A DNA stretch of 64,000 nt from Octopus vulgaris. Taxonomy: Eukaryota. The first letter of the stretch is position 1. Every line of letters starts with the position of its first letter. A program made the translations under genes and the position numbers. Shown in pieces: positions 1-61,083 of the stretch. A model generated the notes under the pieces. The model saw only the letters and a list, made by a program, of their open reading frames with translations. It was not told where the DNA came from and did not search any database. Location of the stretch: positions 11,098,001 through 11,162,000 of the forward strand of contig OX597842.1 in assembly GCA_951406725.2 (NCBI GenBank), in the 5' to 3' direction.

Positions 1-1486
1 TTTGCATTATGTAGCTTGTTATTCTCTTTAAGGGAACATTTTTCTGGTTGAAATACACCGAGAAATGGCGACACAGCAGTCAAACTACCGTAAAAAATGG
101 ATATTTTCGTAGAAAAAAAATCACTTTCTTTATGTAAATAATTTTTGGTCTTAACATGGTTCGATTTGAATGTTATCTACTACGGAAGGAAGAGCAAGCC
201 TTCTTCTATCATACTCTCAATTTTGGTCAACTTGTGCCGCAGGGTCTTGGAGGAGATAATGTTAGTTGAAGGCTACCAAACCTGCCACAGACATCCAACT
301 TCAGCTTTACATATATATAGACTAGCCGTATCGCCCGGCGTTGCGCAGGTTTGTTTCGACCCTTTAGAACTGGAATTTTTGAAAAGTAAAATTTTGCATT
401 ATGTAGCTTGTTATTCTCTTTAAGGGAACATTTTTCTGGTTGAAATACACCGAAAAATAGCGACACAGCAGTCAAAAAATCGTAAAAAATAGGGATTTTC
501 ATAGAAAAAAAAAACCTTTTTGATGTAAATAATTTTTGGTGTTAACATGGTCCGATTTGAATTTTATCTTCTACAGAAGGAAGAGCAAGCCTTCTTCTAT
601 CATACTCTCAATTCTGGTCAACTTCCGCCGAAGGGTCTCGGAGGAGATAGTGTTAGTTGAAGGCTACCAAACCTGCCTCACACAGACAACTTCAGCTTTA
701 CATATATATAGACTAGCCGTATCGCCCGGCGTTGCGCGGGTTTGTTTCGACCCTTTAGAACTGGAATTTTTGAAAAGTAAAAGTTTGCATTATGTAGCTT
801 GTTATTCTCTTTAAGAGAACATTTTTCTGGTTGAAATACACCGAAAAATAGTGACACAGCAGTCGAAAAATGGCGACACAGCTGTCAAAAAATCGTAAAA
901 TATAGGGATTTTCATAGAAAAAAAGCACCTTTTTTCTTGTTAACATGGTCCGATTTGATATTTTTCTTCTATGGAATGAAGAGCAAGCCTTCTTCTATCA
1001 TACTCTCAATTTTGGTCAACTTGCGCAGCAGGGTCTCAGAGGAGACAGTGTTAGTTTGAAGGCTACCAAACCTGCCATACACAGACAACTTCAGCTTTAT
1101 ATATATAGACTAGCAGTATCGCCCGGCGTTGCGCGGATTTGTTTCAACCCTTTAGAATTGGTATTTTTGAAAAGTAAAAGTTTGCATTATGTAGCTTGTT
1201 ATTCTCTTTAAGAGAACATTTTTCTGGTTGAAATACACCGAAAAATGGCGACACAGCAGTCAAGAAATCGTAAAAAATAGGGATTTTTATAGAAAAAAAT
1301 CACATTTTTTCGTGTTAACATGGTCCGATTTGAATTTTATCTTCTACGGAAGGAAGAGCAAGCCTTCTTCTATCATACTCTCAATTTTGGTCAACTTGTG
1401 CTGCAGGGTCTTGGAGGAGATAGTGTTAGTTTGAAGGCTACCAAACCTGCCATACACAGACAACTTCAGCTTTATATAGAAAAAGA
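1..1486 (-). mobile_element. Head-to-tail tandem array (>=4 units, ~370-400 bp) of a non-autonomous Helitron
   Basis: Units are ..321, 322-712, 713-1109 and 1110-~1486. On the minus strand each starts TCtatatat and ends with a GC-rich hairpin (cccgcgcaacgccgggcg) followed by CTAG. Junctions read CTAG|TC with no spacer. Confidence 0.8.
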
Positions 1487-2533: not shown

Positions 2534-3568
2534 AGAGCAAAACAAAAAACTGTTCTCAGTATTTAAGGAAGCTGACAAATACAAACAAGAAATCATACCA
2601 CCTAATAAACATGAAGAAGAAGAAGAAGATGGAGAAACAACAAAAGCTATAAAACAAATGAAATCCAAACTAAAAAATAGAACAGCAACGAACCATGATA
2701 AAACGATGGCAAGAAAAGCCCCTTCATGGTAAATACTGGACTAAACTAAACGCAAAAGAAATAGACAAAGAAAAATCCCAGCAATGGTTGAGAAGCTCAG
2801 GACTCAAAGCAGAGACAGAGGGATTTTTAATTGCAGCACAAGACCAAAGCCTCCCCACCAGAAATTACCAAAAACATGTAATGAAAAGAAATATTACAAG
2901 TAACTGCAGAATATGTGGAGATGGACAAGAAACAATAAATCATATTATCTCTAGCTGCCCAGTCCTGGCTAAGAAGGAATATATTCACAGACATGACAGA
3001 GTTGGAACCTACATACACTGGAAGCTGTGCCAACATTATGGAATAACAACAGAAAAAAGATGGTATAGGCACACACCAGAAAAGGTCACAGAAAACGAGA
3101 AAGCAAACATACTCTTGTATATGCCAATACACACAGATAGAGAAATTAAGGCCAACAGACCATATATAGTTGTCAGAGATCATGAAGAAAAAAAATGCTT
3201 TCTAATTGATGTATCAATACCGGCAGATGACAACGTGTCTCTAAAAGAAATGGAGAAACTCTCAAAATACAAAGACCTGGAAATAGAGGTAACTAGAATG
3301 TGGAATCTGGAAATAGAAACAATTCCTATCATAGAAGGTGCATTAGGCATGATAAAAAAATATTCAGACAAATACATAACAAAAACATCAGGACTTACAA
3401 ATACATATAACATACAGAAAATTGCACTACTAGACACTGCACACATCCTACGCAGAACACTTTCCATACAATAACCATCAGAGCATCACAACAAATCACA
3501 GCACATACCTAAGGCACACAGAGCTGTGCTCGGTAGTGAAGTGAAAGCACGCTATAAAAATAAAACTA

Positions 3569-3572
<4 letters not shown>
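2534..3572 (+). mobile_element. 5'-truncated R4/Dong-like non-LTR retrotransposon (C-terminal zinc knuckle, restriction-like endonuclease, 3' UTR)
   Basis: ORF 2695-3474 has the CCHC knuckle CRICGDGQETINHIISSC, RHD, and PD..D..K endonuclease motifs (RPYIVV..LIDVSIP..KLSKYKDL..GALG). Flanked on both sides by (AAT)n. The same 3' end recurs at 26013-26447. Confidence 0.85.
2695..3474 (+). pseudogene. Truncated retrotransposon ORF C-terminus; catalytic PD appears mutated to PY
   Basis: 259-aa open frame with no RT domain and a frameshift just upstream. The second copy reads aggccggatata (RPDI) where this one reads agaccatatata (RPYI). Confidence 0.8.
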
Positions 3573-9331: not shown

Positions 9332-9509
9332 GCACACACACACACACACACACACATGTATATATACGCATACAGGAAAACAAAACGACGTAGGCGAGAA
9401 TCGACATACATGTACATACACAGTACGAACCTAGACACACACTTCACTTGATTCAACATAAAGGGATCGTCAATATTAACGTTTCGTGCGCTGTCAACAA
9501 GATTATAAT

Positions 9510-10078
9510 CCTTTTTGCTATAAGAACAAGGCCTGAAATGTGGAGGAAGGGGTCTAGTTGTTTACCTCGTCCACAGTGCATAACTGGTACTTTAATTAAT
9601 CGACCCCGAAAGGATAAAAGTAAAGTCGACCAGAGCGAAATTTGAATTCAGAACGAAAAGACAGACGAAATAGCTATTTCTTTACTACCCACAAGGGGCT
9701 AAACACAGAGAGGACAAACAAGGACAGACAAACGGATTAAGTCAATTACATCGACTCCAGGGCATAACTGGTACTTAATTTATCGACCCCGAAAGGATAA
9801 AAGGTAAAGTCGACCTGGGCAAAATTTGAACTCACAACGTAAAGACAGCCGAAATAGCTATTTCTTTACTACCCACAAGGGGCTAAACAAAGAGAGGACA
9901 AACAAGGACAGACAAACGGATTAAGTCGATTATATCGACCCCAGTGCGTAACTGGTACTTTTATTTATCGACCCCGAAAGGATAAAAGGTAAAGTCGACC
10001 TCGGCGGAATTTGAACTCAGAACGTAACGGCAGACGAAATACGGCTACGCATTTCGACCGGCGTGCTAATGTTTCTGC

Positions 10079-14377: not shown

Positions 14378-14948
14378 TCTTTTACTTGTTTCAGTCATTT
14401 GACTGCGGCCATGCTGGAGCACCGCCTTTAGTCGAGCAAATCGACCCCAGGACTTATTCTTTGTAAGCCCAGTACATTTGCCGAACCGCTAAGTGACGGG
14501 GACGTAAACAGACCAGCATCGGTTGTCAAGCAATGCTAGGGGGACAAACACAGACACACAAACACATACACACGCATATATATATACATACATATACACG
14601 ACAGGCTTCTTTCAGTTTCCGTCTACCAAATCCACTCACAAGGTATTGGTCGGCCCGGGGCTATAGCAGAAGACACTTGCCCAAGGTGCCACGCAGTGAG
14701 ACTGAACCCGGAACCATGTGGTTGGTTAGCAAGCTACTTACCACACAGCCACTCGTGCACCAATATATATATATATATACATATATACGACAGGCTTCTT
14801 TCAGTTTCCGTCTACCAAATCTACTCACAAGGCATTGGTCGGCCCGAGGCTATAGCAGAAGACACTTGCCCAAGATGCCACGCAGTGGGAATGAACCCGG
14901 AAACATGTGGTTGGTAAGCTAGCTACTTACCACACAGCCACTCCTGCG

Positions 14949-15044
<96 letters not shown>

Positions 15045-15210
15045 TACGACAGGCTTCTTTCAGTTTCCGTCTACCAAATCCACTCACAAGGCATTGGTCG
15101 GCCCAAGGCTATAGTAGAAGACACTTGCCCAAGATACCACGCAGTGGGACCGAACCCGGAACCATGTGGTTGGTTAGCAAGCTACTTACCACACAGCCAC
15201 TCCTGCGCCT
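14378..15210 (-). mobile_element. SINE family A with three tandem head units separated by (TA)n
   Basis: Head block acgacaggcttc...ccactcctgcgcct repeated at ~14597, ~14787 and ~15046. Confidence 0.9.
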
Positions 15211-15568
15211 ATATATATATATATATATACACCCACGTGTGTGTGTATGTACATATATACAGATATACAAGATAAGTTAAATAAAGTGACAGTACGAATA
15301 ACAAAAGAGGATGTATACAAATTGGGACACAGAAGAGACAGAAAGAGGAAGACAAATAGAGCCAGAGATGGAGAGAGACTCAGAGAGAGAGAGACAGACG
15401 CAGGGAGGGAAATGCTTTTCCATGAGGAAGAGAAATACGCCATTATGAGAAACGCTCAGCAAATATACAGAGATAAGCGGCCGCTTGTGACGTGGATAAA
15501 CAGAACTGTTTGTATAAGAACAGCACAAGAGGTTTTGGGAAACATTCCACCGTGTAGAATATGTGTTT

Positions 15569-17974
<2,406 letters not shown>

Positions 17975-18322
17975 CTGTATATGTTAATGTATATATTTAC
18001 CTATACACATAGCGGTCTAGTTTTACTTACATGGGAAAACATATCTCCATAAACAAACGGCGCGCATGTTTACGCGAGTCTTCGTCTGTATGTGTGTGTG
18101 TTTGTTTGTTTACGTACATCTTCTAGGGAATTCAACAGATTTGCGTTTCATCACTCAGCTCTTGGGAACCCTGTATATTTTGCTTTTCGTCATTCCCCTT
18201 TAAGAAGATGAAGCTTCCATAACCCAGAGCCTAATTCTTAACTGGAGATTTTCCAATTTTAGAAATATTAATTCAAGGAGACTTTCTAGATGCTTTCCTC
18301 TTTCTAAAATCTACTATAATAT

Positions 18323-19690
18323 TTTCTACTCTAAGCACAATGCCCACAATGGGTGGAGGGAAGTACCAGTCGATTACATCGACCCTAGCACGCAACTGGT
18401 ACATAATTTATCGAACCCGAAAGGAAGGAGGGCAAAGTCGACGCCGTCGGAATTTGAACTCAGAATGTAAAGACAGACGAATTACCTATGTCTTTACTAC
18501 CCAACAAGGGGCTAAACACACAGAGGACAAACAAGGACAGCCAAACAGATCAAGTCGATTATATCGACCCCAGTGCGTAACTGGTACTTAACTTATCGAC
18601 CCCAAAAAGATGAAAGGCAAAGTTGACCTCGGCGGAATTTGAACTCAGAACGTAGCGGCAGACGAAATACCGGTTTCTTTACTACCCACAAGAGGATAAA
18701 CACAGAGAGGACAAACAAGGACAGACAAACGGATTAAGTCGATTATATCGACCCCAGTGCGTAACTGGTACTTATTTTAGTTTATCGACCTGAAACCGAA
18801 AGGTAGACGAAATACCGGTTTCTTTACTACACAAGAGGATAAACACAGAGAGGGGACAATGTCGACTGGTACTTAGTTTATTGAAACCCGACGCCGTCGT
18901 AATTTGAACTCAGAATGTAAAGACAGACGAATTACTTATGTCTTTACTACCCACAAGGGCTAAACACAGAGAGGACAAACAAGGACAGACAAATGGATTA
19001 AGGCGATTATATCGACCCAGTGCGGAACTGGTACTTAATTTATCGACCCCGAAAGGATGAAAGGCAAAGTTGACCATGGCGGAATTTGAACTCAGAACGT
19101 AGCGGGATACGAAATACCGCTAAGCATTTCACCCGGCGTGCTAACGTTTCTTATTCCTTTATTACCCACAAGGGCTAAACACATAGGGGACAAACAAGGA
19201 CAGACAAAAGGCTTAAGTCGATTACATCGACCCCAGTGATTCACTGGTACTTAATTTTCGACTCCGAAAGGATGAAAGGCAAAGTCGATCTCGGCGGAAT
19301 TTGAACTCAGATCGTAACGGCAGACGAAATACCTATTTCTTTACTACCCACAAGGGGCTAAACACAGAGAGGACGAACAAGGACAGAGAAAAGGCTTAAG
19401 TCGATTACATCGACCTTCAGTAATTCACTGGTACTTAATTTATCGACCCCGAAAGGATGAAAGGCAAAGTCGATCTCGGCGGAATTTGAACTCAGATCGT
19501 AACGGCAGACGAAATACCGCTAAGCATTTCGCCCGGCGTGCTAACACAGAGAGGCCTTGAACAATCTACTATAATAATACTCTTAAAGTGACCTTCAGTA
19601 ATTCACTGGTAACTTAATTTCATCGACCCATGAAAGGATGAAAGGCAAAGTCGATCTCGGCGGAATTTGAACTTGACAGATCGTAACGGA
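18323..19690 (-). repeat. SINE family B tandem array (~7-8 units, some truncated)
   Basis: Repeated aatttgaactcaga..agacgaa.tacc..tttctttactacccaca..gacaaacaaggacagac blocks. Confidence 0.9.
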
Positions 19691-20069
19691 TTGGAGACAA
19701 GCATTTCCAACCAGCAAATCCAGCACCCAGGGACTAGATTGTGAGTCATTTCTCATCATCAGTCTGGATTAGCATGGCTTGCTAAGTGCCGATGCTAATC
19801 CGTCTTTGTAAACATAGATTTCAAGTGAAATACATTCACTTTGAAAATGTCACATTAAGTTGATAATATGCTATCACTTTATCGTTCTGCCACTGCATAA
19901 ATCTCTCTCTGTGAGATTGACAAATCTATTATTTCAATAATACTCTCGTGATTTTCTCCGTTACAACATATGAATGAACAAAGAAAGAGTTGATAGATGA
20001 ATAAGGAAGGAAGGCAGGAAGGAAAGAAGGAAAGGGTGATGGAAAAGTAGTAGTGGGACGAGGAAAAAA

Positions 20070-21128
20070 AATCAAACAGCGTTTCAACTCTGTGTGAGTG
20101 TGTAAAAGGGAGGTATGTGAATGTGTGCGTGTGTATGTGTATGTGTGCAATGGAAGGGGAATGGTGAAAATTCAACACTGAAAAGAAAACTCGAACAGCG
20201 TTTCAACTCTGTGTGAGTGTGTAAAAGGGAGATATGTGAATGTGTGCGTGTGTATGTGTATGTGTATGTGTGCAATGGAAGGGGGATGGTGAAAATTCAA
20301 CGCTGAAAAGAAAACTCAAACAGCGTTTCAACTCTGTGTGAGTGTGTAAAAGAGAGGTATGTGAATGTGTGCGTGTGTATGTGTATGTGTATGTGTGCAA
20401 TGGAAGGGGAATGGTGAAAATTCAACGCTGAAAAGAAAACTCAAACAGCGTTTCAACTCTGTGCGAGTGTGTAAAAGGGAGGTATGTGAATGTGTGCGTG
20501 TGTATGTGTATGTGTGCAATGGAAGGGGGATGGTGAAAATTCAACACTGAAAAGAAAACTCAAACAGCGTTTCAACTCTGTGTGAGTGTGTAAAAGGGAG
20601 GTATATGAATGTGTGCGTGTGTATGTGTGTGTGTGCAATTGAAGGGGGATGGTTAAAATTCAACGCTGAAGAGAAAACTCAAACAGCGTTTCAACTCTGT
20701 GTGCGTGTGTACGTGTATGTGTATGTGTGCAATGGAAGGAGGATGGTGAAAATTCAACACTGAAAGGAAAACTCAAACAGCGTTTCAACTCTGTGCGAGT
20801 GTGTAAAAGGGATGTATGTGAATGTGTGCGTATGTATGTGTATGTGTATGTGTGCAATGGAAGGGGGATGTGTGCGTGTGTACGTGTATGTGTGTGTGCA
20901 ATGGAAGGGGGATGGTGAAAATTCAATACTGAAAAGAAAACTCAAACAGCGTTTCAACTCTGTGTTAGTGTGTAAAAGGGATGTATGTGAATGTGTGCGT
21001 GTGTGTGTATGTGTATGTGTGTAATGGAAGGGGGATGGTGAAAATTCAACACTGAAAAGAAAACTCAAACAGCGTTTCAACTCTGTGTGAATGTGTAAAA
21101 GGGAGGTATGTGAATGTGTGCGTGTGTG
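20070..21128. repeat. Minisatellite, ~9 units of ~120 bp
   Basis: aaacagcgtttcaactctgtg..gtgcaatggaagggg..ggtgaaaattcaac.ctgaaaag repeated with a variable (GT) core. Confidence 0.9.
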
Positions 21129-22421: not shown

Positions 22422-22982
22422 AATGTCAGGCTCATGAGGGCCGATTATTTCTCGGGCCATGGCAGGCTCACCGAGGGCCGTCTTTCTCGGGCCATGGCAG
22501 GCTCATGAGGGCCGATTCTTTCTCGGGCGTATGGCAGGCTCATAAGGGCCGGATTCTTTCTCGGGCCATGGCAGGCTCATTGAGGGCCGGATTATTTCTC
22601 GGGCCATGGCAGGCTCGTGAGGGCCGGGGTCTTTCACGGGCCATGGCAGGCTCATGATGGCCGATTCTTTCTCGGGCCATGGCAGGCTCATGAGGGCCGA
22701 TTCTTTCACGGGCCATGGCAGGCTCATTGAGGGCCGGATTCTTTCTCGAGCCATGGCAGGCTCATTGAGGGCCGGATTCTTTCACGGGCCATGGCAGGCT
22801 CATGAGGGCCGATTCTTTCTCGGGCCATGGCAGGCTCATTGAGGGCCGGATTCTTTCACGGGCCATGGCAGGCTCATGAGGGCCGATTCTTTCTCGGGCC
22901 ATGTCAGGCTCATGAGGGCCGATTCTTTCTCGGGCCATGGCAGGCTCATGAGGGCCGGATTCTTTCTCGAGCCATGGCAGGT
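22422..22982 (-). repeat. GC-rich minisatellite (~15 x 35-37 bp) continuous with the 3' tail of SINE family D
   Basis: Unit ggccatggcaggctcat(t)gagggcc(g)gattctttc(t/a)cg; the last unit runs into gccatggcaggttaatgagaaccggtttcccgg. Confidence 0.85.
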
Positions 22983-23166
22983 TAATGAGAACCGGTTTCC
23001 CGGTTTCAGTGGTATAGAAATTCCCCACCCCGATGGGACCCTGGTTTGTCACAGAATATCTCATTTGTTTCCAGCTGAGTGGACTGGAGCAACGCATCAC
23101 CAAGTTCAGGAATCGAAATCACAATCTTGAGTCTAACACCCTAACCACTAAGCCACGCACCTCCAC
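22965..23166 (-). mobile_element. tRNA-derived SINE family D (internally deleted)
   Basis: Minus strand: gtggaggtgcgtggcttagtggttagggtg..tttcgattcc..ttgctccagtccactcagctg. Confidence 0.65.
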
Positions 23167-23186
23167 CCATCCAAGAGTAAGTTGTC

Positions 23187-24144
23187 ATGCTTTTGCACAC
23201 TAGGCAGAAGGCACGATATTTTAGAGGAGGGGGCCAGTCGATTATATCGACCCCAGTGCGTAACTGGTACTTATTTGATCGATCCCGAAAGGATGAAAGG
23301 CAAAGTCGACCTCGGCGGAATTTGAACTCAGAACGTAGCGGCAGACGAAATACCTATTTCTTTACTACCCACGAGGGGCTAAACACAGAGAGAACAGACA
23401 AGGACAGACAAGGGGATTAAGTCGATTATATTGAGCCCAGTGCGTAACTGGTACTTATTTGATCGACCCCGAAAGGATGAAAGGTAAAGTCGACCTCGGC
23501 GGAATTTGAACTCAGACCGTAGCGGCAGACGAAATACCTCTTTCTTTACTACCCACAAGGGGCTAAGCACAGAGAGGACAAACAAGGAACAGACAAGGGG
23601 ATTAAGTCGATTACATCGACCCCAGTGCGTAACTGGTACTTAATTTAATCGACCCCAGAAAGGATGAAAGGCAAAGTCGACCATCGGCGGAATTTGAACT
23701 CAGAACCGTAGCGGCAGACGAAATACCTATTTCTTTACTACCCACAAGGGGCTAAACACAGAAGGGACAAACAAGGACAGACAAGGGGATTAAGTCGATT
23801 ATATCAACCCCAGTGCGTAACTGGTACTTAATTTATCAACCCCGAAACGATGAAAGGCAAAGTCGACCTCGGCGGAATTTGAACTCAGAACGTAACGACA
23901 GACGAAATACCAATTTCTTTACTACCCTCAAGGGGCTAAACACAGAAGGGACAAACAAGGACAGACAAGGGGATTAAGTCGATTATATCGACCCCAGTGC
24001 GTAACTGGTACTTATTTAATCGATCCCGAAACGATGAATGGCAAAGTTGACCTCGGCGGAATTTGAACTCAGAATATAATGGCAGACGAAATACCGCTAA
24101 GCATTTCGCCCGGCGTGCTAACGTTTCTGCCAGCTCGCCGCCTT
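23187..24144 (-). repeat. SINE family B with 5 tandem ~185-bp units
   Basis: gaactcaga at ~23325, 23509, 23697, 23881 and 24065; a single complete head (aaggcggcgagctggcagaaacgttagcacgccgggcg) at the right end. Confidence 0.9.
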
Positions 24145-24379
24145 AGATTAAGCCCTCATTAACAACCGGAAGCAATCATGAGAGCAGCAGTGTGAGTGTC
24201 TGTTTGTCCTTGGTTATGCTCATGGTTTTCCTCTCACTACGCATTCATGGTGCGATGAGCAAAATCTGTTAACCTGCAATTAATGTCGCCGTAATCATAA
24301 AACGCCGTATACGGCGATATCCATCTTCACACAAAGTCCCATCGCAGACACAAGGCATTAAGAGCAAACACCCTGATAC

Positions 24380-27624: not shown

Positions 27625-28014
27625 GGAATGGAAGCACTCCGTCGGTTACGACGACGAGGGTTCCGGTTGATCCGAATCAGCGGAACAGCCTGCTCGTGAA
27701 ATTAACGTGTAAGTGGCTGAGCACTCCACAGGCACGTGTACCATTCACGTAGTTTTCGGGGATATTCAGCGTGACACAGAGAGTGACAAGGCCGGCCCTT
27801 TGAAATACAGGTACAACAGAAACAGGAAGATAGAGTGAGAGAAAGTTGTGGAGAAAGAGTACAGCAGGGATCACCACCATCCCCTGCCGGAGCCTCGTGG
27901 AGCTTTTAGGTGTTTTCGCTCAATAAACACTCACAACGCCCGGTCTGGGAATCGAAACCGCGATCATATGACCGCGAGTCCGCTGCCCTAACCACTGGGC
28001 CATTGCGCGTCCAC
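27625..28014 (-). mobile_element. Full-length SINE family C (tRNA-Arg-like head)
   Basis: Reverse complement of 60703-61083; tail (ttcca)n; inserted in (AAT)n. Confidence 0.9.
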
Positions 28015-31414: not shown

Positions 31415-31777
31415 GGCAAAATGCTCAGCGGTATTTCCTCTGCCGCTACGTTCTGAGTTCAAATTCCGCCGAGGTCGACTTTGCCTTTCATCCTTTCGGG
31501 GTCGATAAATTAAGTACCAGTTACGCACTGGGGTCGATATAATCGAGTTAATCCGTTTGTCTGTCCTTGTTTGTCCCCTCTGTGTTTAGCCCCTTGTGGG
31601 TAGTAAAGAAATAGGTATTTCGTCTGCCGCTACGTTCTGAGTTCAAATTCCGCCGAGGGTGATGTTATATTTCATCCTTTCAGGGTCGATAAATTAAGTA
31701 CCAGTTGCGTACTGGAGTCGATCTAATCCACTGCCCCCTCCCCTCAAAATTTTGAGCCTTGTGCCTAGAGTAGAAAA
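31415..31777 (+). mobile_element. SINE family B with 2 tandem units
   Basis: gagttcaaattccgccgagg..tttcatccttt..gggtcgataaattaagtaccag occurs twice; the internal and terminal tails differ. Confidence 0.85.
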
Positions 31778-32712
31778 CAGTATTTTACACAAATACTACT
31801 ACTTCTACCACTACTACAGGTTGTGCCTCTCCTACCATGAGCACCACCTCCAACAATGTTACTATTACCTATACTATAATCGCAACACTCATCTCCGAGT
31901 TTCTGAGAGTTTTAATTCCTTAAGAAAATATTCTTTTCTTCCTTAACAGGTAATTCCAAATAAACTTTTTCTTTCTTATTCTTTTTATTTATTTCATTCA
32001 TTGGAGTGCGGCCAAGCTGGAGCACCGCCTTTTAGTCGAACAACCCGATTCCAGAACCTATTGTTTGTAAGCCTATACACACATACATATATATATACAT
32101 ACATGTATATGTATATATATATATATGAATTTATTATAATAATAATATTAGGGAGTATAACTCTAAACTTACAGGAAAAATTCAATTTAGTACTAAATCA
32201 AATATATATATATATAAATTAATAAATAAAACATATGCATATATACATACATATATGTACGTACCTACCTCTATATGTATACATACACGCATATATGGGT
32301 ACACACACCAAAAAAACGTCGAACACAATTAGAAACGAAAACATAAACACAAAACCAAGGGACTGGACATTTTTCTTAAACAACGGAAAGAGAGAGTACA
32401 GGACAAACAACACAAGAAAAATTCCCCTTCTTCAGTCGCCATGGTTTCATCTACTCTGCGTTTCGAAGGTGAAGGCGATACGCATCTTCGATAGAAACTT
32501 TCCTTCCCGCGAAAAGCAAATTAAATAAAATTTGAGATCTTTTTGCGGAGGGGGAAAAATGGTAACAAAAACAGGACAGTAACGACAGTACAAAATATAA
32601 GCAGTAAAAGACAGGACAAGGAGAATAACAAGACAAGAAGGGCTGTTAAGCCGAACGCGAAAAACATATATATATATATATATACATACATATATATATA
32701 TATTTATATATG

Positions 32713-33445: not shown

Positions 33446-33456
33446 TATAATAATTA

Positions 33457-33650
33457 AGGTGGCGAGCTGGTAGAATCGTTAGCACTCCCGGTGGAATGCT
33501 TAGCTGTATTGCGTCTGTCTCCACGTTATGAGTTCAAATTCCGCCGAGTTCGACTTTGCCTTTCATCCTTTCGGAATCGACAAAAATAAGTACCAGTCGA
33601 CTACTGGGGTCGATTTAATCGCCTTAGTCCCTCCTCACACATTTTCAGGA
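33457..33650 (+). mobile_element. SINE family B monomer, diverged
   Basis: aaggtggcgagctggtagaatcgttagcac..gagttcaaattccgccgag.tcgactttgcctttcatcctttcgg. Confidence 0.8.
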
Positions 33651-34183
33651 ACGTCCATATTGCCAACATCACCACCACCACCACCAGCACACTACTACTT
33701 CTACAATTATCACCACCACCATCACCACAACTACGACTACAACTACAGCCTACACTACTAAGACTACTACTGTTGCAACTACAACTACTACTACCACTAC
33801 TACTACTACAGCCTTTTCATCTATTTCCACTATTACTACTACCACTACCACCACTACTACTACAAATAATACTATTAGTACTACTACTACTACCATTAGT
33901 ACTACTACTCTGCTACTACTCCTATTCCTACTACCACTACTACTATCAGTACTACTACTAGTAATAATTCTGCTACTACTACTACTAGTACCACTACTAC
34001 TACCACTACCACCACTACTACTAATACTTTTCTTCTACTATCACTACTAATACTACTACCATTAGTACTACTACCACCACTACTGGTACTACTAGTAGTA
34101 CTATTACTAGTTCTACCACTACCACTACTACAATTATTTCTTCTAATACTAAAACTACTGCTACTACTATTACCACTACTACT

Positions 34184-37100
34184 GTGGAGGCGCAATGGCC
34201 CAGTGGTTAGGGCAGCGGACTCGCGGTCATAGGATCGCGGTTTCGATTCCCAGACCGGGCGATGTGAGTGTTTATTGAGCGAAAATACCTAAAGCTCCAC
34301 GAGGTTCCGGCAGGGGTTGGTGGTGATCCCTGCTGTACTCTTTCACCACAACCTTCTCTCACTCTTACTTCCTGTTTCTGTTGTACCTGTATTTCAAAGG
34401 GCCGGCCTTGTCACTCTCTGTGTCACGCTGAATATCCCCGAGAACTACGTTAAGGGTACACGTGTCTGTGGAGTGCTCAGCCACTTACACGTTAATTTCA
34501 CGAGCAGGCTGTTCCGTTGATTCGGATCAACCGGAACCCTCATCGTCGTAACTGATGGAGTGCTCCTGCAGGGGGTGGTGGTGATCCCTGCTGTACTCTT
34601 TCACCACAACTTTCTCTCACTCTTACTTCCTGTTTCTGTTGTACCTGTATTTCAAGGGGCCGGCCTTGTCACTCTCTGTGTCACGCTGAATATCCCCGAG
34701 AACTACGTTAAGGGTACACGTGTCTGTGGAGTGCTCAGCCAATTACACGTTAATTTCACGAGCAGGCTGTTCCGTTGATTCAGATCAACCGGAACCCTCA
34801 TCGTCGTAACTGACGGAGTGCTCCTGCAGGGGGTGGTGGTGATCCCTGCTGTACTCTTTCACCACAACTTTCTCTCACTCTTACTTCCTGTTTCTGTTGT
34901 ACCTGTATTTCAAAGGGCCGGCCTTGTCACTCTCTGTGTCACGCTGAATATCCCCGAGAACTACGTTAAGGGTACACGTGTCTGTGGAGTGCTCAGCCAC
35001 TTACACGTTAATTTCACGAGCAGGCTGTTCCGTTGATTCGGATCAACCGGAACCCTCATCGTCGTAACTGACGGAGTGCTCCTGCAGGGGGTGGTGGTGA
35101 TCCCTGCTGTACTCTTTCACCACAACTTTCTCTCACTCTTACTTCCTGTTTCTGTTGTACCTGTATTTCAAGGGGCCGGCCTTGTCACTCTCTGTGTCAC
35201 GCTGAATATCCCCGAGAACTACGTTAAGGGTACACGTGTCTGTGGAGTGCTCAGCCACTTACACGTTAATTTCACGAGCAGGCTGTTCCGTTGATTCAGA
35301 TCAACCGGAACCCTCATCGTCGTAACCGACGGAGTGCTCCAGCAGGGGATGGTGGTGATCCCTGCTGTACTCTTTCACCACAACTTTCTCTCACTCTTAC
35401 TTCCTGTTTCTGTTGTACCTGTATTTCAAGGGACCGGCCTTGTCACTCTCTGTGTCACGCTGAATATCCCCGAGAACTACGTTAAGGGTACACGTGTCTG
35501 TGGAGTGCTCAGCCACTTACACGTTAATTTCACGAGCAGGCTGTTCCGTTGATTCGGATCAACCGGAACCCTCATCGTCGTAACTGACGGAGTGCTCCTG
35601 CAGGGGATTGGTGGTGATCCCTGCTGTACTCTTTCACCACAACTTTCTCTCACTCTTACTTCCTGTTTCTGTTGTACCTGTATTTCAAAGGGCCGGCCTT
35701 GTCACTCTCTGTGTCACGCTGAATATCCCCGAGAACTACGTTAAGGGTACACGTGTCTGTGGAGTGCTCAGCCACTTACACGTTAATTTCACGAGCAGGC
35801 TGTTCCGTTGATTCGGATCAACCGGAACCCTCGTCGTCGTAACTGACGGAGTGCTCCTGCAGGGCGTGGTGGTGATCCCTGCTGTACTCTTTCACCACAA
35901 CTTTCTCTCACTCTTACTTCCTGTTTCTGTTGTACCTGTATTTCAAGGGGCCGGCCTTGTCACTCTCTGTGTCACGCTGAATATCCCCGAGAACTACGTT
36001 AAGGGTACACGTGTCTGTGGAGTGCTCAGCCACTTACACGTTAATTTCACGAGCAGGCTGTTCCGTTGATTCGGATCAACCGGAACCCTCATCGTCGTAA
36101 CCGACGGAGTGCTCCTGCAGGGGATGGTGGTGATCCCTGCTGTACTCTTTCACCACAACTTTCTCTCACTCTTACTTCCTGTTTCTGTTGTACCTGTATT
36201 TCAAGGGACCGGCCTTGTCACTCTCTGTGTCACGCTGAATATCCCCGAGAACTACGTTAAGGGTACACGTGTCTGTGGAGTGCTCAGCCACTTACACGTT
36301 AATTTCACGAGCAGGCTGTTCCGTTGATTCGGATCAACCGGAACCCTCATCGTCGTAACCGACGGAGTGCTCCTGCAGGGGATTGTGGTGATCCCTGCTG
36401 TACTCTTTCACCACAACATTCTCTCACTCTTACTTCCTGTTTCTGTTGTACCTGTATTTCAAAGGGCCGGCCTTGTCACTCTCTGTGTCACGCTGAATAT
36501 CCCCGAGAACTACGTTAAGGGTACACGTGTCTGTGGAGTGCTCAGCCACTTACACGTTAATTTCACGAGCAGGCTGTTCCGTTGATTCGGATCAACCGGA
36601 ACCCTCATCGTCGTAACCGACGGAGTGCTCCTGCAGGGCGTGGTGGTGATCCCTGCTGTACTCTTTCACCACAACTTTCTCTCACTCTTACTTCCTGTTT
36701 CTGTTGTACCTGTATTTCAAAGGGCCGGCCTTGTCACTCTCTGTGTCACGCTGAATATCCCCGAGAACTACGTTAAGGGTACACGTGTCTGTGGAGTGCT
36801 CAGCCACTTACACGTTAATTTCACGAGCAGGCTGTTCCGTTGATTCGGATCAACCTGGAACCCTCATCGTCGTAACCGACGGAGTGCTCCTGCAGGGGGT
36901 GGTGGTGATCCCTGCTGTACTCTTTCACCACAACTTTCTCTCACTCTTACTTCCTGTTTCTGTTGTACCTGTATTTCAAAGGGGCCGGCCTTGTCACTCT
37001 CTGTGTCACGCTGAATATCCCCGAGAACTACGTTAAGGGTACACGTGTCTGTGGAGTGCTCAGCCACTTACACGTTAATTTCACGAGCAGGCTGTTCCGT

Positions 37101-38445
37101 TGATTCGGATCAACCGGAATCCTCATCGTCGTAACTGACGGAGTGCTCCTGCAGGGGGTGGTGGTGATCCCTGCTGTACTCTTTCACCACAACTTTCTCT
37201 CACTCTTACTTCCTGTTTCTGTTGTACCTGTATTTCAAGGGGCCGGCCTTGTCACTCTCTGTGTCACGCTGAATATCCCCGAGAACTACGTTAAGGGTAC
37301 ACGTGTCTGTGGAGTGCTCAGCCACTTACACGTTAATTTCACGAGCAGGCTGTTCCGTTGATTCGGATCAACCGGAACCCTCATCGTCGTAACCGACGGA
37401 GTGCTCCTGCAGGGGATGGTGGTGATCCCTGCTGTACTCTTTCACCACAACTTTCTCTCACTCTTACTTCCTGTTTCTGTTGTACCTGTATTTCAAAGGG
37501 CCGGCCTTGTCACTCTCTGTGTCACGCTGAATATCCCCGGGAACTACGTTAAGGGTACACGTGTCTGTGGAGTGCTCAGCCACTTACACGTTAATTTCAC
37601 GAGCAGGCTGTTCCGTTGATTCGGATCAACCGGAATCCTCATCGTCGTAACTGATGGAGTGCTCCTGCAGGGGGTGGTGGTGATCCCTGCTGTACTCTTT
37701 CACCACAACTTTCTCTCACTCTTACTTCCTGTTTCTGTTGTACCTGTATTTCAAAGGGGCCGGCCTTGTCACTCTCTGTGTCACGCTGAATATCCCCGAG
37801 AACTACGTTAAGGGTACACGTGTCTGTGGAGTGCTCAGCCACTTACACGTTAATTTCACGAGCAGGCTGTTCCGTTGATTCGGATCAACCAGAACCCTCG
37901 TCGTCGTAACTGACGGAGTGCTCCTGCAGGGGGTGGTGGTGATCCCTGCTGTACTCTTTCACCACAACTTTCTCTCACTCTTACTTCCTGTTTCTGTTGT
38001 ACCTGTATTTCAAAGGGCCGGCCTTGTCCCTCTCTGTGTCACGCTGAATATCCCCGGGAACTACGTTAAGGGTACACGTGTCTGTGGAGTGCTCAGCCAC
38101 TTACACGTTAATTTCACGAGCAGTCTGTTCCGTTGATTCGGATCAACCGGAACCCTCGTCGTCGTAACCGACGGAGTGCTCCTGCAGGGGATGGTGGTGA
38201 TCCCTGCTGTACTCTTTCACCACAACTTTCTCTCACTCTTTCTTCCTGTTTCTGTTGTAGCTGTATTTCAAGGGGCCGGCCTTGTCACTCTCTGTGTCAC
38301 GCTGAATATCCCCGAGAACTACGTTAAGGGTACACGTGTCTGTGGAGTACTCAGCCACTTACTTACACGTTAATTTCACGAGCAGGCTGTTCCGTTGATC
38401 GGATCAACCGGAACCCTCGTCGTCGTAACCGACGGAGTGCTTCCA
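34184..38445 (+). repeat. SINE family C with its ~258-bp body tandemly amplified 16 times
   Basis: One tRNA-like head (tggcccagtgg..gtttcgattcc) at 34184 and 15 junctions gtgctcc.gcaggg at 34560, 34818 ... 38176. Normal tail ggagtgcttcca. Embedded in a (CTA)n tract with ccactactact on both sides. Confidence 0.95.
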
Positions 38446-39149
38446 CTACTACTACCACTACCACTACTACTACAACTACCACTACTGCTACTACTAGTAC
38501 TACTACTACTACTACCACTATCACCACTACTACTACTACTACTACCATTACTACTACCACAACTACTAGTACCACTACTAATACTACTACCACTACCACC
38601 ACTACTAATACTGTTTCTACTACTACCACAACTACTACCACAACTACTACTACTACTAATACCACTACCACCACTACTACAGTTTTTACATCTACCAACA
38701 CTACTAGTACTACTACAAATTCTCTGCAAACAAGAAGCAAGAAGCTAAAGGATGCAGCTGAAGACGATTGGAAAGAGAGAGAGAAGGAGAGAGAGGGAGA
38801 GAGGGAGGGAGAGAGAGAGAGAGAGAGGGGAGAGAGAGAGAGAGATCAATGAAATCGATCGGTGTCATCAATATGTCTTTTTATCTTTTATCACTCTCAG
38901 TGATGCTGAGTGATTCACCGGTTGAAAGAGCGTTCGTCGAATGTATCGACCCAAAACACTCATAAATTTTAAACCTGGTACATATTCTATCGGTGTGTTT
39001 TGCCGATCTGCTAAGTCGCAGGGACGTTAGCGCACCAACACCATTTTTAAAGCGGTGGAATTGCGGGGAGGGCAAACATACACATACACATACATATATA
39101 TATGTATACATACACAGATACACATACACCAAGACACACACATATATAT

Positions 39150-39635
39150 ACGCGTAGGAGTGGCTGTGGGGTAAGTAGCTTTCTAACCAACCACATGGTT
39201 CCGGGTTCAGTCCCACTGCGTGGCATCTTGGGCAAGTGTCTTCTACTATAGCCTCAGGCCAACCAAAGCCTTGTGAGTGGATTTGGTAGACGGAAACTGA
39301 AAGAAGCCCATCATATATCTATAGAGGCATAGGAGTGGCTGTGTGGTAAGTAGCTTCCTTACCAACCACATGGTTCCGGGTTCAGTCCCACTGCGTGGCA
39401 TCTTGGGCGAGTGTCTTCTACTATTGCCTCAGGCCAACCAAAGCCTTGTGAGTGGATTTGGTAGACGGAAACTGAAAGAAGCCCATCATATATATATATA
39501 GGCATAGGAGTGGCTGTGTGGTAAGTAGCTTCCTTACCAACCACATGGTTCCGGGTTCAGTCCCACTGCGTGGCATCTTGGGCAAGTGTCTTCTACTATA
39601 GCCTCGGATCAACCAAAGCCTTGTGAGTGGATTTA
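39150..39635 (+). mobile_element. SINE family A, three tandem head units without tail
   Basis: aggagtggctgtg.ggtaagtagctt at ~39156, 39331 and 39506. Confidence 0.9.
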
Positions 39636-42979: not shown

Positions 42980-43615
42980 CGGCGAGCTGGCAGTATCGTT
43001 AACAAGCCGGATCAAATGATAGGGTGGCATTTCTTTTGGCTTTACTTTCTGAGATCAAATTCCACCAAGGTCAACTTTGCTTTTCATCCTTTCGGGGCCG
43101 ATAAAATAAGTACCAGTAAAACACAGGGGTCGAAGTAATCAACTTACCTGTAACTGGAACCTGCTGGCAGCGGGTCGGCAGAATCGATAACTCACAGGGC
43201 AAAATGCTGACCGACATCTCGAGCAACTTTACATTCTGAGTTGAAACTCTGTGTGGGGTCGACTTTGTCTTTAACACATTAGGGGTCAAGTCATGCATAG
43301 GGATCAATGTTATGAACTAGCCCTCTTCCTCGAAATGTTAGGCTTTTGAGCTGAGAACTTAAAGCTGGAGAAAACGCCGCAAAGTATTTTGGTCATTATC
43401 GAACGATTTTGACTTTAATAAAGATTATTGCTACTCTAGGCACAAGGCATTGAAAGATTTTGGTGAAGGGAGATAGTCAATTATATCGAGACCAGTGTGT
43501 AACTGGTATTCATTTCAATATCGACCTTGGCGGATTTTGAACTCAGAACGTAGCAACAGATGAAATACCACCAAGCATTTCGCCCAGCGTGCAAATGATA
43601 CTGCCAGCTCGCCGA
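42980..43615. mobile_element. Cluster of diverged SINE family B copies (two plus, one minus)
   Basis: ggcgagctggcag..tttcatcctttcggggccgataaaataagtaccag and its reverse complement. Confidence 0.7.
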
Positions 43616-43629
43616 TTTCACAACCAGCA

Positions 43630-45838: not shown

Positions 45839-45884
45839 TACCTATGTACTCGATTATTTTCTATAGAAGAAAATATTATTATTG

Positions 45885-46097
45885 ATTTCAAAATTTAGCA
45901 CAATGCTTGCAGAATCCGTGAAGGGGTTAAGTCCATTAGATCGGCCCCAGTGTTCAAATAGTACTTAATTTATTGACCCGAAAAGGATGAAAGGCAAAGT
46001 CGAACTCAGCAGTGGAATTTGAACTCAGAACGTAAAGCGAAAAGCCATGTCGCTAAGCATTTCGCTCGGCGTGCTAACGATTCTGCCAGCTCGCCGA
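45885..46097 (-). mobile_element. SINE family B monomer
   Basis: gacccgaaaaggatgaaaggcaaagtcga..gaatttgaactcagaacg..ctgccagctcgcc. Confidence 0.8.
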
Positions 46098-46673
46098 CTT
46101 CGTATACATACATCGAATGGTTATCGCGATCCGGTAGGGGAAAATACGAATGGAAGCACTCCAAAGCAAAAAATATGGCTGAGAGCCAATGATGTGAACG
46201 CTTGGGCGTTTAAGAGAGACGTTGCGAAAAAAAACACACAGGCTTTTTCAAATAAACTTCACATATTTCACCAAGGCAAGGGGACTTTTCTCGCCTCAGC
46301 CATGAACACAGATCTATCCCCGCTCTGTCACCCACTGACATTTTGTCCCTCGGATTTCGCCACTGAGCACCACTTTTTTTTATTCCCTTTCATTTATTGC
46401 CGATGTTGAAGTCATCTTCAACTCTGGCGAATTTTCATGCGCCATGAGAGATCAAAGTGTGATTGATACAAGAATTGAGTACAAACTAATGAGATCGTGT
46501 TCTTAAAAGGGAGGGAAAAAAAACAAAAGACGGTTCAAGGAGAGAAGATCAACTGCGAAAGAAGGACCAATTATGTAGTGTCTTTAAAATGTGTATCGTT
46601 CCTTTTCAAACGCATTTCGTGTGCGTGCGTTTGTGTGTGCATGTCTAATATCATACATACTATACATACACGT

Positions 46674-54059: not shown

Positions 54060-54474
54060 TACTCTTTTACTCTCTTTTACTCTTTTACTTGTTTCAGTCA
54101 TTTGACTGCGGCCATGCTGTAGCACCGCCTTTAATCGAGCAAATCGACCCCGGGACTTATTCTTTTTGTAAGCCCGGTACTTATTCTATCAGTCTCTTTT
54201 GCCGAACCGCTAAGTGACGGAGACGTAAACACACCAGCATCGATTGTCAAGCAATGCTAGGGGGACAAACACAAACATACACACACACGCATATATCTAT
54301 ATATACATATATACGACGGGCTTCTTTCAGTTTCCATCTACCAAATCCACTCACAAGGCATTGGTCGGTCCGGAGCTATAGCAGAAGACACTTGCCCAAG
54401 ATGCCACGCAGTGGGACTGAACCCGGAACCATGTGGTTGGTTAGCAAGCTACTTACCACACAGCCACTCCTGCG

Positions 54475-54521
<47 letters not shown>

Positions 54522-54678
54522 GATGGGCTTCTTTCAGTTTCCGTCTACCAAATCCTCTCGCAAGGCTTTGGTCGACCTGAGGCTATAGCAGAAGTTTGCC
54601 CAAGATGACACACAGTGGGACTGAACCCGCATCCATGTGGTTGGTTAGCAAGCTACTGACCACACAGCCACTCCTGCG

Positions 54679-54681
<3 letters not shown>
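54060..54681 (-). mobile_element. SINE family A with duplicated head
   Basis: Tail (ctctttta)3; heads end at ~54477 and ~54681. Confidence 0.9.
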
Positions 54682-54729
<48 letters not shown>

Positions 54730-54772
54730 ATCACGTGACCGACCAGGCTATCAGATGTTGTTACACATCGCT

Positions 54773-55081
54773 GGCCGACCAATGCCTTGTGAGTGGATTT
54801 GGTAGACGGAAACTGAAAGAAGCCTGTCGTATATATGTATATATATATGCGTGTGTGTGTTTGTGTGTCTGTGTTTGTCCCCCTAGCATTGCTTGACAAC
54901 CGATGCTGGTGTGTTTACGCCCCCCCGTCACTTATTGGTTCGGCAAAATGGGACCGATAGAATAAGTACTGGGCTTACAATAGAATAAGTCCCGGTGTCG
55001 ATTTCCTCGACTAAAAGGCGGTGCCCCAGCATGGCCGCAGTCAAATGACTGAAACAAGTAAAAGAGTAAAAGAGTAAAAGA

Positions 55082-57809: not shown

Positions 57810-58795
57810 TGTATGCCAATATATTAATGTATACCAATGTATCCAAACCATACCAATGTATGCAAAAGATATCTGTGTATGCCAGTGTATTACAATGTAT
57901 ACGAATGTATGTCAGTTTATACTAATGGTGCGGATGTATGCCAATATATGCCAATGTATACCAATGTATACCAATGTATGCCAATGTATGCCAATGTATG
58001 TCAAAGTCTATCACTGTGTGCCAATATATGCCAGCGTATGCCAATGTATGCCAATGTATACCAGTGTATGCCAAACTATACGAATGTAAGTCAGTTTATA
58101 CCGATGGTGCGGATGTATGCAAATATGTGCCACTGTATACCAATGTATACCAATGTATGCCAACCTGTACCAACGTATACCTATATATATTAATGTATGT
58201 CAATGTATGCCAACGTATACCTATGTATATTAATGTATGCCAATGTATGCCACTGTATGTCAATGTATGTCAATATATGCCAACGTATGCCAATGTATAC
58301 CTATTTCTTTACTACCCACAAGGGGCTAAACACAGAGGGGACAAACAAGGACAGACAAACGGATTAGGTCGATTACATCGACCCCAGTGCGTAAATGGTA
58401 TTTAATTTATCGACCCCGAAAGGATGAAAGACAAGGTTGATCTCGGCGGGATTTGAACTCACAACGTAACGGCAGACGAATTACCTATTTCTTTACTACC
58501 CACAAGGGGCTAAACACAGAGGGGACAAACAACGACAGACATAGGTATTAAGTCGATTACATCGACCCCAGTGCGTAACTGGTACTTAATTTATCGACCC
58601 CGAATGGATGAAAGGCAAAGTCGACCTCGGCGGAATTTGAACTCACAACGTAACGGCAGACGAAATACCGCTAAGCATTTTGCCCGGCGTGCTAACGTTT
58701 CTGCCAGTTCACCGCCTTATCTACCAGCTCGCCGCCTTATACCAATGTATACCAACGTATGTCAATGCATGCGAATGTATGCCAATGTATATACT
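57810..58795. repeat. Degenerate 10-bp minisatellite (gtat[g/a]ccaat)n interrupted by SINE B
   Basis: Unit seen at 57810-58300 and resuming at 58740-58795. Confidence 0.85.
58298..58737 (-). mobile_element. SINE family B, two internal-type units plus head
   Basis: tacctatttctttactacccacaagggg.. at 58298 and ~58482. Confidence 0.85.
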
Positions 58796-60702: not shown

Positions 60703-61083
60703 GTGGAGGCGCAATGGCCCAGTGTTTAGGGTAGCGGACTCGCAGTCATAGGATCGCGGTTTCGATTCCCAGACCGGGCGTTGTGAGTGTTCATTGAGCG
60801 AAAACACCTAAAGCTCCACGAGACTCCGGCAGGGGTGGTGATCCCTGCTGTACTCTTTCACCACAACTTTCTCTCATTCTTACTTCCTGTTTCTCTTGTA
60901 CCTGTATTTCAAAGGGCCGGCCTTGTCACTCTTTGTGTCACGCTGAATATCCCCGAGAACTACGTTAAGGGTACACGTGTCTGTGGAGTGCTCAGCCACT
61001 TACACGTTAATTTCACGAGCAGGCTGTTCCGTTGATTCGGATCAACCGGGACCCTCGTCGTCGTAACCGACGGAGTGCTTCCA
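60703..61083 (+). mobile_element. Full-length monomeric SINE family C with 11-bp target-site duplication
   Basis: caacttccaac lies immediately 5' (60690-60700) and 3' (~61086-61096); the mariner reading frame resumes across it. Confidence 0.9.

What the first reader, a model, noticed from the sequence alone, without database searches (positions are those of the whole stretch)
23187..24144. A homogeneous ~185-bp SINE-B-derived unit accumulates inside older SINE B copies at five loci
Seen at 9510, 18323, 23187, 31415 and 58298: tandem units starting within the tRNA head (gtatttcgtctg), spanning box B and the gtcgactttgcctttcatcctttcggggtcgataaa domain, and ending in a distinctive tail (..gtttgtcc..ctgtgtttagccccttgtgggtagtaaagaaatag) with the same junction at every locus. 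At four loci the outermost tail is a different, diverged type. Established: this central domain resembles the Meta domain of animal SINEs, and tandem repeats derived from a Meta-domain SINE are known in squamate reptiles. Inference: the unit behaves as its own mobile entity, for example a circle integrating by homology into resident SINEs, rather than arising independently at each locus.
Basis: partly seen in the sequence, partly recalled or inferred. Interest (0 to 1): 0.7.

Follow-up and report, generated by a model that had tools for sequence, protein, structure and literature searches.

The report
Young SINE repeats atop older copies
A short jumping element in an animal genome forms small head-to-tail arrays in which a young front part and young repeats sit on the worn back end of an older copy; such arrays are a known kind, but the one-sided age pattern suggests they were added through an RNA copy rather than a DNA circle.

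Summary
The arrays are real. All five loci carry a ~184-bp unit; one junction occurs 13 times, 0 expected by chance; four arrays end in an older tail.

Two corrections. The central domain is the UCON3 SINE domain, not Meta. The units do not sit inside old copies: array heads are as young as the units (10/206 differences; unit tails 48/843; solo heads 77/376). The structure is polar, young 5' and old 3'. That contradicts a circle integrating by one crossover, which would keep the old head.

Units in an array share private variants, so they did not arrive one by one. One array has a 15-bp target-duplication candidate.

Best reading: one young SINE subfamily spread as RNA containing the junction, was joined by homology to older copies during reverse transcription, then changed copy number locally. 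The joining step is inferred from four loci only.

SINE-derived tandem arrays are known from squamates and bivalves, and two other SINE families form tandems in this window. New variant of a known kind; moderate interest.

The parts
24095..24144 (-). Locus C: full-length young head (box A region), diagnostic A variant
   Evidence: 0/47 differences from leave-one-out head consensus
23354..24094 (-). Locus C: four 184-189-bp units (3' part of head with box B-like GAGTTCAAATTCC, UCON3 domain, GTCGAT/ATCGAC hairpin, tail X); junctions near 23911, 23727, 23538, 23354
   Evidence: all four tails share a private CC variant
23237..23353 (-). Locus C: last core, young along its whole length
   Evidence: 5/117 differences
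23265..23312 (-). Example of the UCON3 domain (in the last core of C)
   Evidence: motif match at 23265-23284; alignment printed in PMC7245038 Fig. S2; upper boundary approximate, set by eye
23187..23236 (-). Locus C: old outer tail (Y type)
   Evidence: 12-19 differences in 48-49 sites against the other three outer tails
9507..10078 (-). Locus A: 5'-truncated head (10043-10078), two units with tail X, old last core and old tail (9507-9556); preceded by (TAT)n
   Evidence: cores 4/117, 14/117, 19/116; head 4/35; private variant in all three cores
18319..19707 (-). Locus B: complex array. Indel-rich partial copy B0 (19560-19707); B1-B2 (19152-19545); second truncated young head at 19118-19151 joined to tail X by a different junction; B3; fragments B4, B5; B6; old core B7 and old tail (18319-18368)
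31415..31781 (+). Locus D: 16-nt head remnant, one unit (31431-31614), last core young for 38 nt then old, old tail (31732-31781)
   Evidence: D1 4/117; D2 0/38 then 14/79, Fisher p=0.004 with the breakpoint chosen after seeing the data
58302..58738 (-). Locus E: 20-nt duplicated head fragment, full young head, two units, ends at tail X with no old tail
58739..58753 (-). Locus E: 5' copy of candidate 15-bp target-site duplication
   Evidence: 14/15 match to the 3' copy; only 1 of 148 upstream positions matches this well, the one abutting the head; lies in a 10-bp minisatellite
58287..58301 (-). Locus E: 3' copy of candidate target-site duplication; begins with GGTAT, the same five bases that span the array junction
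   Evidence: 3 of 188 downstream positions match the upstream 15-mer at 14/15 or better
33456..33660 (+). Solo older copy of the same SINE (comparison set)
   Evidence: head 7/47, core 18/117
43423..43618 (-). Solo older copy with the same outer-tail type as the arrays (comparison set)
   Evidence: head 8/47; tail 11-17 differences in 47-50 sites to array outer tails
45878..46100 (-). Solo older copy (comparison set); its head is well conserved, an exception among solo copies
   Evidence: head 2/47, core 22/117

Best explanation
A young subfamily of a tRNA-type, UCON3-domain SINE acquired a new 3' tail (X) and, once, an internal tandem duplication joining tail X back to head position 49. SHOWN in the window: head, first core and tail X are one age class (about 5% from consensus); the junction is constant; 4 of 5 arrays end in older, mutually different 3' ends; the young-to-old switch lies at different places in the last core; units in an array share private variants. 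INFERRED: the mobile form is an RNA starting at the head and running through the junction, copied by a LINE reverse transcriptase. What follows tail X in that RNA is SINE core, so an older resident copy offers up to 120 nt of primer-template homology. Priming there adds young unit(s) and a young head 5' of the old remainder. The 5' side is closed by annealing to the resident head (replacing it, no duplication) or by end-joining with loss of it. Where only a short GGTAT match was available (locus E) it inserted with a target duplication. Unequal exchange and slippage then changed copy number locally. It is selfish repeat DNA; no host function is indicated.
For: Polarity: heads 10/206, first cores 37/701, internal cores 52/818, tail X 48/843, last cores 54/467 (first vs last p=1.3e-4), solo cores 161/817. 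Diagnostic head base 4/4 vs 0/8. Star-like trees, 1 supported fork of 10 and 1 of 19; within-locus 8.9% vs between-locus 9.7%, permutation p=0.12: one source, one burst. Variable switch points. No run of four T in the unit consensus or in arrays C and E, so Pol III read-through is possible. E: 14/15 duplication abutting both ends, opening with GGTAT. No duplication at A, C, D. Precedent for seamless 5' junctions by cDNA annealing to homologous upstream target, and for flanking deletions: R2, PMC11331408 (passages).
Against: Only five loci; no orthologous empty sites, no genome-wide library. Four of six array heads are 5'-truncated with no old head remnant upstream (solo copies 8 of 8 full, p=0.015), which fits insertion at a fresh site at least as well. 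A1 (4/35) and D1 (2/16) heads do not on their own exclude an old head. No overall 5'-to-3' age gradient across units (p=0.43), so repeated addition is not shown. No tail-X monomer and no partner LINE was found; tail X has no significant fold (z -0.41 and -0.28). E's duplication lies in a minisatellite, and E could have lost a 3' part by deletion. Duplications are not visible around solo copies either (by eye), so their absence at A, C, D says little. Distances of last cores and solo copies are to the young consensus and include subfamily differences.
Confidence: 0.38

Rival explanations
1. Template switching. Reverse transcription starts on an older-type SINE RNA, switches within the shared core to the tail-X RNA, and the chimera inserts whole at a new site.
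For: Explains polarity, variable switch points, different outer tails, and 5'-truncated heads without old remnants. Template switching is the discussed route of SINE module exchange (PMC4758252, passages).
Against: Needs already degenerate tails (31% apart) to prime in 4 of 5 events, while E suggests tail-X RNA can insert without one. No young target duplication around A, C, D. The 14-bp repeat around B1-B7 is part of a copy of B7's end, not a clean duplication.
Confidence: 0.22
2. Pre-formed tail-X dimers or multimers (like E) inserted normally, and later DNA-level deletion or unequal exchange with a nearby older copy in the same orientation fused them.
For: E looks like a pre-formed dimer. 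The family is dense: 5 arrays and 9 solo copies in 64 kb. Local rearrangement is evident at B.
Against: DNA recombination has no reason to follow SINE sense: old-head/young-tail products should be as common; seen 4 versus 0 (chance 1 in 16 one-sided, weak). It would have to hit 4 of 5 arrays across 120 bp of 15-20% diverged sequence.
Confidence: 0.17
3. An ordinary dimeric SINE family (head-core-X-core-Y) retrotransposed whole; the outer part only looks old because the Y tail mutates fast or comes in several subfamilies.
For: Known kind of structure (bivalve TSD1-(SINE)n-TSD1, PMC11481361). The Y tail has C and A runs and is eroded at its end. C5 core is young.
Against: Three of four last cores are also old (49/350 vs 37/701, p=4e-6; C5 left out after seeing the data). 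D2's changes hit UCON3 positions conserved across the animals in PMC7245038 Fig. S2 (by eye). Outer tails 31% apart versus 9.4% for tail X.
Confidence: 0.12
4. One reading: a headless 184-bp circle integrates by a single crossover into resident copies, one unit at a time.
For: Constant junction, old outer tail, variable switch point in the last core. A1 and D1 heads alone do not exclude it.
Against: Predicts an old head and an old first core up to the crossover. C1 head plus core 10/164 vs 238/1193 in solo copies, p=3e-6; four heads 7/131. Diagnostic head base differs from all 8 solo copies. Private variants: CC in 4 of 4 C tails vs 0 of 10 others, p=0.001.
Confidence: 0.06
5. The duplication arose independently at each locus by slippage at a short GGTAT match between the tail end and head position 48-52.
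For: E ends in tail X plus GGTAT. The 258-bp array of another SINE at 34306-38441 has a junction with a short match of this kind.
Against: All 5 tail-X loci are arrays and no monomer was seen. It does not explain the old outer tails.
Confidence: 0.05

Closest known systems
SINE-derived satellites (sSat1-3) of squamates, Vassetzky et al. 2023, PMC10702118 (read: parts 1-4 of 5 of the main text; supplements searched, mostly figures without text)
   Same: Tandem units shorter than the parent tRNA-SINE, shared between loci, often starting inside the head and including box B; longer terminal unit reaching the SINE end; some units with extra sequence of unknown origin.
   Different: There arrays reach hundreds of units, are more homogeneous when long, and lie subtelomerically. 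Here 2-5 intact units, no significant within-locus homogenisation. No young-head/old-tail polarity is reported in the parts read. The paper suggests unequal recombination; 'circular', 'rolling', 'target site' have 0 occurrences.
Tandem HCD-SINE arrays of the bivalve Scapharca broughtonii, type TSD1-(SINE)n-TSD1, PMC11481361 (passages)
   Same: First SINE with complete head, middle units with a fixed head truncation, last unit with the same truncation and a complete tail.
   Different: There the middle units have a truncated form of the same tail and the array has target duplications. Here the middle tail is a different, younger tail and the last tail is older; a duplication candidate is seen only at E.
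UCON3-domain SINEs, Kojima 2020, PMC7245038 (passages and Supplementary file 1 part 1)
   Same: tRNA-type head followed by the ~50-bp UCON3 domain; 38 of 48 positions match the UCON3_CM row (counted by eye); families with this domain have swapped 3' tails.
   Different: The listed hosts are chordates, nematodes, cnidarians and xenacoelomorphs. The host here is probably an octopus (recalled resemblance, not shown by any search). No tandem arrays appear in the passages seen.
MetaSINEs, Nishihara et al. 2016, PMC4824008 (passages, Supplement part 1 and a search of it)
   Same: tRNA head plus conserved central domain plus swapped tails.
   Different: The Meta-domain sequence printed for BivaMeta-SINE1 does not resemble the core here by eye; its primer has 0 matches at 3 mismatches.
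R2 retrotransposon 5' 'anneal' junctions, PMC11331408 (passages)
   Same: A mechanism to work like: cDNA whose 3' end is homologous to the upstream target closes without duplication; end-joining and flanking deletion are the alternative.
   Different: R2 is autonomous and its endonuclease picks the site. Here no site-specific enzyme is known; any preference would come from RNA-DNA homology. Not a member.

Membership tests
MetaSINE superfamily | 66-bp Meta domain in the SINE body | tested here: not met
   0 matches of a BivaMeta primer lying in the body; no likeness by eye to the BivaMeta/BivaMD sequences. The Meta consensus itself is in a figure and could not be read.
UCON3-domain SINEs | UCON3 domain directly downstream of the head | tested here: met
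   13 matches of a 20-nt UCON3 motif, 0 by chance; 38/48 by eye to UCON3_CM
UCON3-domain SINEs | tRNA-derived head with boxes A and B | tested here: inconclusive
   Box-like motifs seen by eye (TGGCAGAAACGTT; GAGTTCAAATTCC); ARAGORN found 0 genes and Rfam 0 matches to E=10 at 23100-24250
UCON3-domain SINEs | 3' tail shared with a partner LINE | not testable with these tools
   No repeat library available; the one LINE 3' end in the window (3474-3571) shows no likeness by eye
SINE-derived satellites (sSat) | Tandem unit shorter than and derived from a SINE | tested here: met
   184-bp unit lacks head positions 1-48
SINE-derived satellites (sSat) | Same unit at many loci, with a longer terminal unit reaching a SINE end | tested here: met
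   5 loci, 13 junctions; heads and outer tails present
SINE-derived satellites (sSat) | At least four middle monomers (the paper's working cut-off) | tested here: not met
   C has three middle units, A one, D and E none; B is fragmentary. They correspond to the paper's short loci.
SINE-derived satellites (sSat) | Subtelomeric location and homogenisation in long arrays | not testable with these tools
   Window position unknown; within vs between distance p=0.12
Dimeric or multimeric SINE retrotransposed whole | Target duplication bounding the whole array | tested here: inconclusive
   E 14/15 in a minisatellite; A, C, D none; B ambiguous
Dimeric or multimeric SINE retrotransposed whole | All parts of one age | tested here: not met
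   Last cores and outer tails older at A, B, D; outer tail at C
Circle-derived integration by single crossover | Resident (old) sequence on both sides, matched switch points | tested here: not met
   Young heads and first cores

The most novel reading that the evidence does not exclude
A self-targeting SINE: because its read-through RNA carries, behind the new tail, a copy of the family's own core, every older copy in the genome becomes a preferred priming site. The subfamily would have gained target specificity from RNA-DNA homology alone, overwriting the heads of its own ancestors and seeding satellite-like arrays at dispersed sites.
Probability: 0.25. Interest if true: 0.72.

Novelty: new variant of a known kind. 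Interest (0 to 1): 0.42.

Why it matters
How the same SINE-derived tandem unit turns up at many dispersed loci is left open in the squamate and bivalve papers. The age polarity found here gives a simple test that separates RNA-based from DNA-based spread, and it can be run on any good assembly of this animal and on the squamate arrays. If priming on resident copies is right, it is a route by which a SINE subfamily replaces older copies in place and starts satellites. It would also mean that ages and copy counts from standard repeat masking are wrong for such loci. If a rival is right, it is one more case of SINE tail swapping and tandem duplication, of interest to repeat curators only.

Tried and rejected
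Outside copies: two scans of genome contigs gave 0 loci and 2 bacterial loci whose match does not extend past 19-21 bases, rejected as chance. Viral and metagenome collections stayed unchecked. A protein search with a spurious reading frame across the junction found no candidate among proteins of 40-128 residues. Host identity: the LINE fragment's best relatives are 48-58% identical and do not name the host; 91 of 178 higher-complexity open frames scanned against Pfam gave one sub-threshold hit. tRNA and Rfam scans were empty. Folding of six tail and head stretches gave no z-score below -0.6. An age gradient along arrays was rejected (p=0.43). Homology of tail X to the old tail: not significant by local alignment for 5 of 6 tails; by best ungapped diagonal the five Y-type tails together exceeded all 300 shuffles (93 vs max 91) but only D2 did so singly, so likely but weak. 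The 14-bp repeat around B1-B7 was rejected as a target duplication because it belongs to a copy of B7's end. Superseded counts: head values included flank bases and a misaligned junction column; one solo head was one base out of register and was corrected. Left out of divergence counts: fragments B0, B4 and the B5 core; the weak headless copy at 28612; two deleted solo cores were left out of the tree. SINEBase supplements were not available and most squamate supplementary figures hold no text, so I could not check whether Squam2 or a published octopus SINE carries this domain, or whether this subfamily is already in a repeat library.

Full report
Setting. The window is repeat-rich animal DNA with no recognisable host gene among the frames scanned (91 of 178). 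I take the host to be an octopus. That rests on recalled likeness of the other SINEs and of the microsatellite load, not on any call. All five loci were read in the SINE's sense.

The observation. The ~184-bp period is found at A (9562-10041), B (18368-18774, 19152-19689) and C (23236-24095) by Tandem Repeats Finder (39 of 189 rows were not shown), and at all five loci by BLAST. The junction matches 13 times against 0 expected. Tail X has 15 hits, all in the arrays: 13 are followed by the standard junction, one by a second junction to head position 16, and one ends array E. None of the 9 solo copies has tail X. Tail X copies differ by 9.4%. The outer tails of A-D differ by 31% yet are related to each other (score 268 vs shuffle maximum 124). 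No exact match over 70 bp is shared between loci.

The domain. The core is not Meta. A BivaMeta primer has no match and the printed BivaMeta sequence looks unrelated. It is the UCON3 domain of Kojima 2020: 38 of 48 positions agree with the UCON3_CM row (by eye), and a 20-nt motif from that figure matches 13 times, 0 by chance. The tRNA origin of the head is seen by eye only; ARAGORN and Rfam were empty.

Ages by segment. Against leave-one-locus-out consensuses: first cores 37/701 (5.3%), middle cores 52/818 (6.4%), tail X 48/843 (5.7%), last cores 54/467 (11.6%), solo cores 161/817 (19.7%). Heads, against a consensus of all other heads: arrays 10/206 (4.9%), solo copies 77/376 (20.5%), p=9e-8; against the two solo copies with the arrays' outer-tail type alone, p=0.003. 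A diagnostic head base is A in 4 of 4 array heads and T in 8 of 8 solo heads. So the head travels with the young unit and only the 3' end is old. The young-to-old switch varies: near the start of the last core in A and B, after about 38 nt in D (breakpoint chosen after seeing the data), at the end of the core in C. Caveats: solo and last-core distances include subfamily differences; one solo head is well conserved (2/47); A1 and D1 heads alone are not informative. At the octopus rate quoted in PMC13282606 (read: parts 1-2 of 3) 5% is about 15 million years, if the host guess holds.

One source, local growth. Trees of cores and of whole units are star-like, and units are hardly closer within a locus than between loci (8.9 vs 9.7%, p=0.12). 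Private variants mark loci: all four C tails, all three A cores, B1 and B2. One variant is shared by A2, E1 and E2 and so is not strictly private. Units therefore did not arrive singly from a common pool; each array came from one donor or grew in place soon after. Locus B shows later local copying: B4 repeats the start of B7, and B0 fuses a copy of B1's core to a copy of B7's end. There is no overall age gradient along arrays (p=0.43).

Ends. E is bounded by a 15-bp direct repeat (14/15) abutting both ends; only 1 of 148 upstream and 3 of 188 downstream positions match as well. It lies in a minisatellite, so this is moderate evidence. The 3' copy opens with GGTAT, the bases that span the array junction. 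A, C and D show no duplication. Four of six array heads are truncated with no old remnant upstream.

Mechanism. A circle entering by one crossover leaves the old head in place; C and B contradict that. DNA recombination in general should give both polarities; 4 versus 0 is suggestive only. Reverse transcription is directional and gives young 5' on old 3'. Two versions fit. In one, an RNA with the junction is primed on a resident older copy through core homology and closed at the 5' side by annealing or end-joining, as R2 does (PMC11331408, passages). In the other, the enzyme switches from an old-type RNA to the young RNA (discussed for SINE module exchange in PMC4758252, passages). I favour the first (0.38 vs 0.22), because E suggests the young RNA needs no borrowed tail and primes at a match to its own downstream sequence, and because degenerate tails are poor substrates. 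The truncated heads favour the second. The shared part of the reading (one young subfamily, moved as RNA, local copy-number change) is much firmer than the joining step. The window cannot settle that step; orthologous sites can.

What is known. Tandem units cut from SINEs and shared between loci are described in squamates (PMC10702118, parts 1-4 of 5 read) and a head-first, tail-last array type in a bivalve (PMC11481361, passages). Two other SINE families form tandems in this window, so arrays as such are ordinary here. I found no report of the age polarity, of this subfamily, or of such arrays in octopus in ten literature searches (listings only unless cited above). The library lacks most subscription journals, and repeat databases, SINEBase supplements and figure-only supplements were not visible, so the subfamily may already be catalogued. 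PMC5786205, PMC3531059 and PMC5804259 were seen as passages only.

Verdict. New variant of a known kind, interest 0.42. The self-targeting reading has probability about 0.25 and would deserve about 0.7.

Noticed in passing
window 34190-38441 (+): Another tRNA-headed SINE with 16 tandem 258-bp copies of its 3' part (94-98% identical to the first), full head at the 5' end; single copies at 27634-27891 and 60825-61078. A classic SINE-derived satellite nucleus with a short-match junction.
   Followed up: partly
window 14576-15229, 39142-39634, 54302-54841: Tandem 5' parts of a third SINE family separated by (TA)n runs; CORE-type by recall.
   Followed up: no
window 2535-3571 (+): 3' fragment of a LINE between (TAA)n runs, with a zinc-knuckle hit (zf-RVT) and relatives bearing reverse transcriptase. 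R4/Dong clade by recalled motifs; PMC13282606 lists Dong-R4 as recently active in Octopus vulgaris.
   Followed up: partly
window 31554-31577 (+) versus about 14540-14563 (-): The 5' half of tail X matches a GT-rich segment of the third SINE family at 21 of 24 bases (1 and 0 of 1000 shuffles reach the score); tail X may be a chimera of that segment and the old tail.
   Followed up: partly
window about 14410-14450 (-) and the 3' end of each core: The third SINE family and this one share a 3' module with a GTCGA/TCGAC hairpin and a variable loop (by eye); a candidate LINE-recognition element.
   Followed up: no
window 19546-19707 (-): B0: indel-rich copy of B1's core fused to a copy of B7's end with 14 bp of its flank, then 17 nt of element-like scraps. 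Templated local duplication or assembly noise; unexplained.
   Followed up: partly
window 10078, 19545, 19151, 31415: All four 5' truncations of arrays fall inside the 48-nt head and none inside a unit; unexplained by random truncation.
   Followed up: no
window 58719-58738 (-): A 20-nt duplicate of the head start directly before E's head.
   Followed up: no
window 1-1478, 20063-21128, 22423-22989: Further tandem arrays with periods of 391, about 120 and 36 bp.
   Followed up: no
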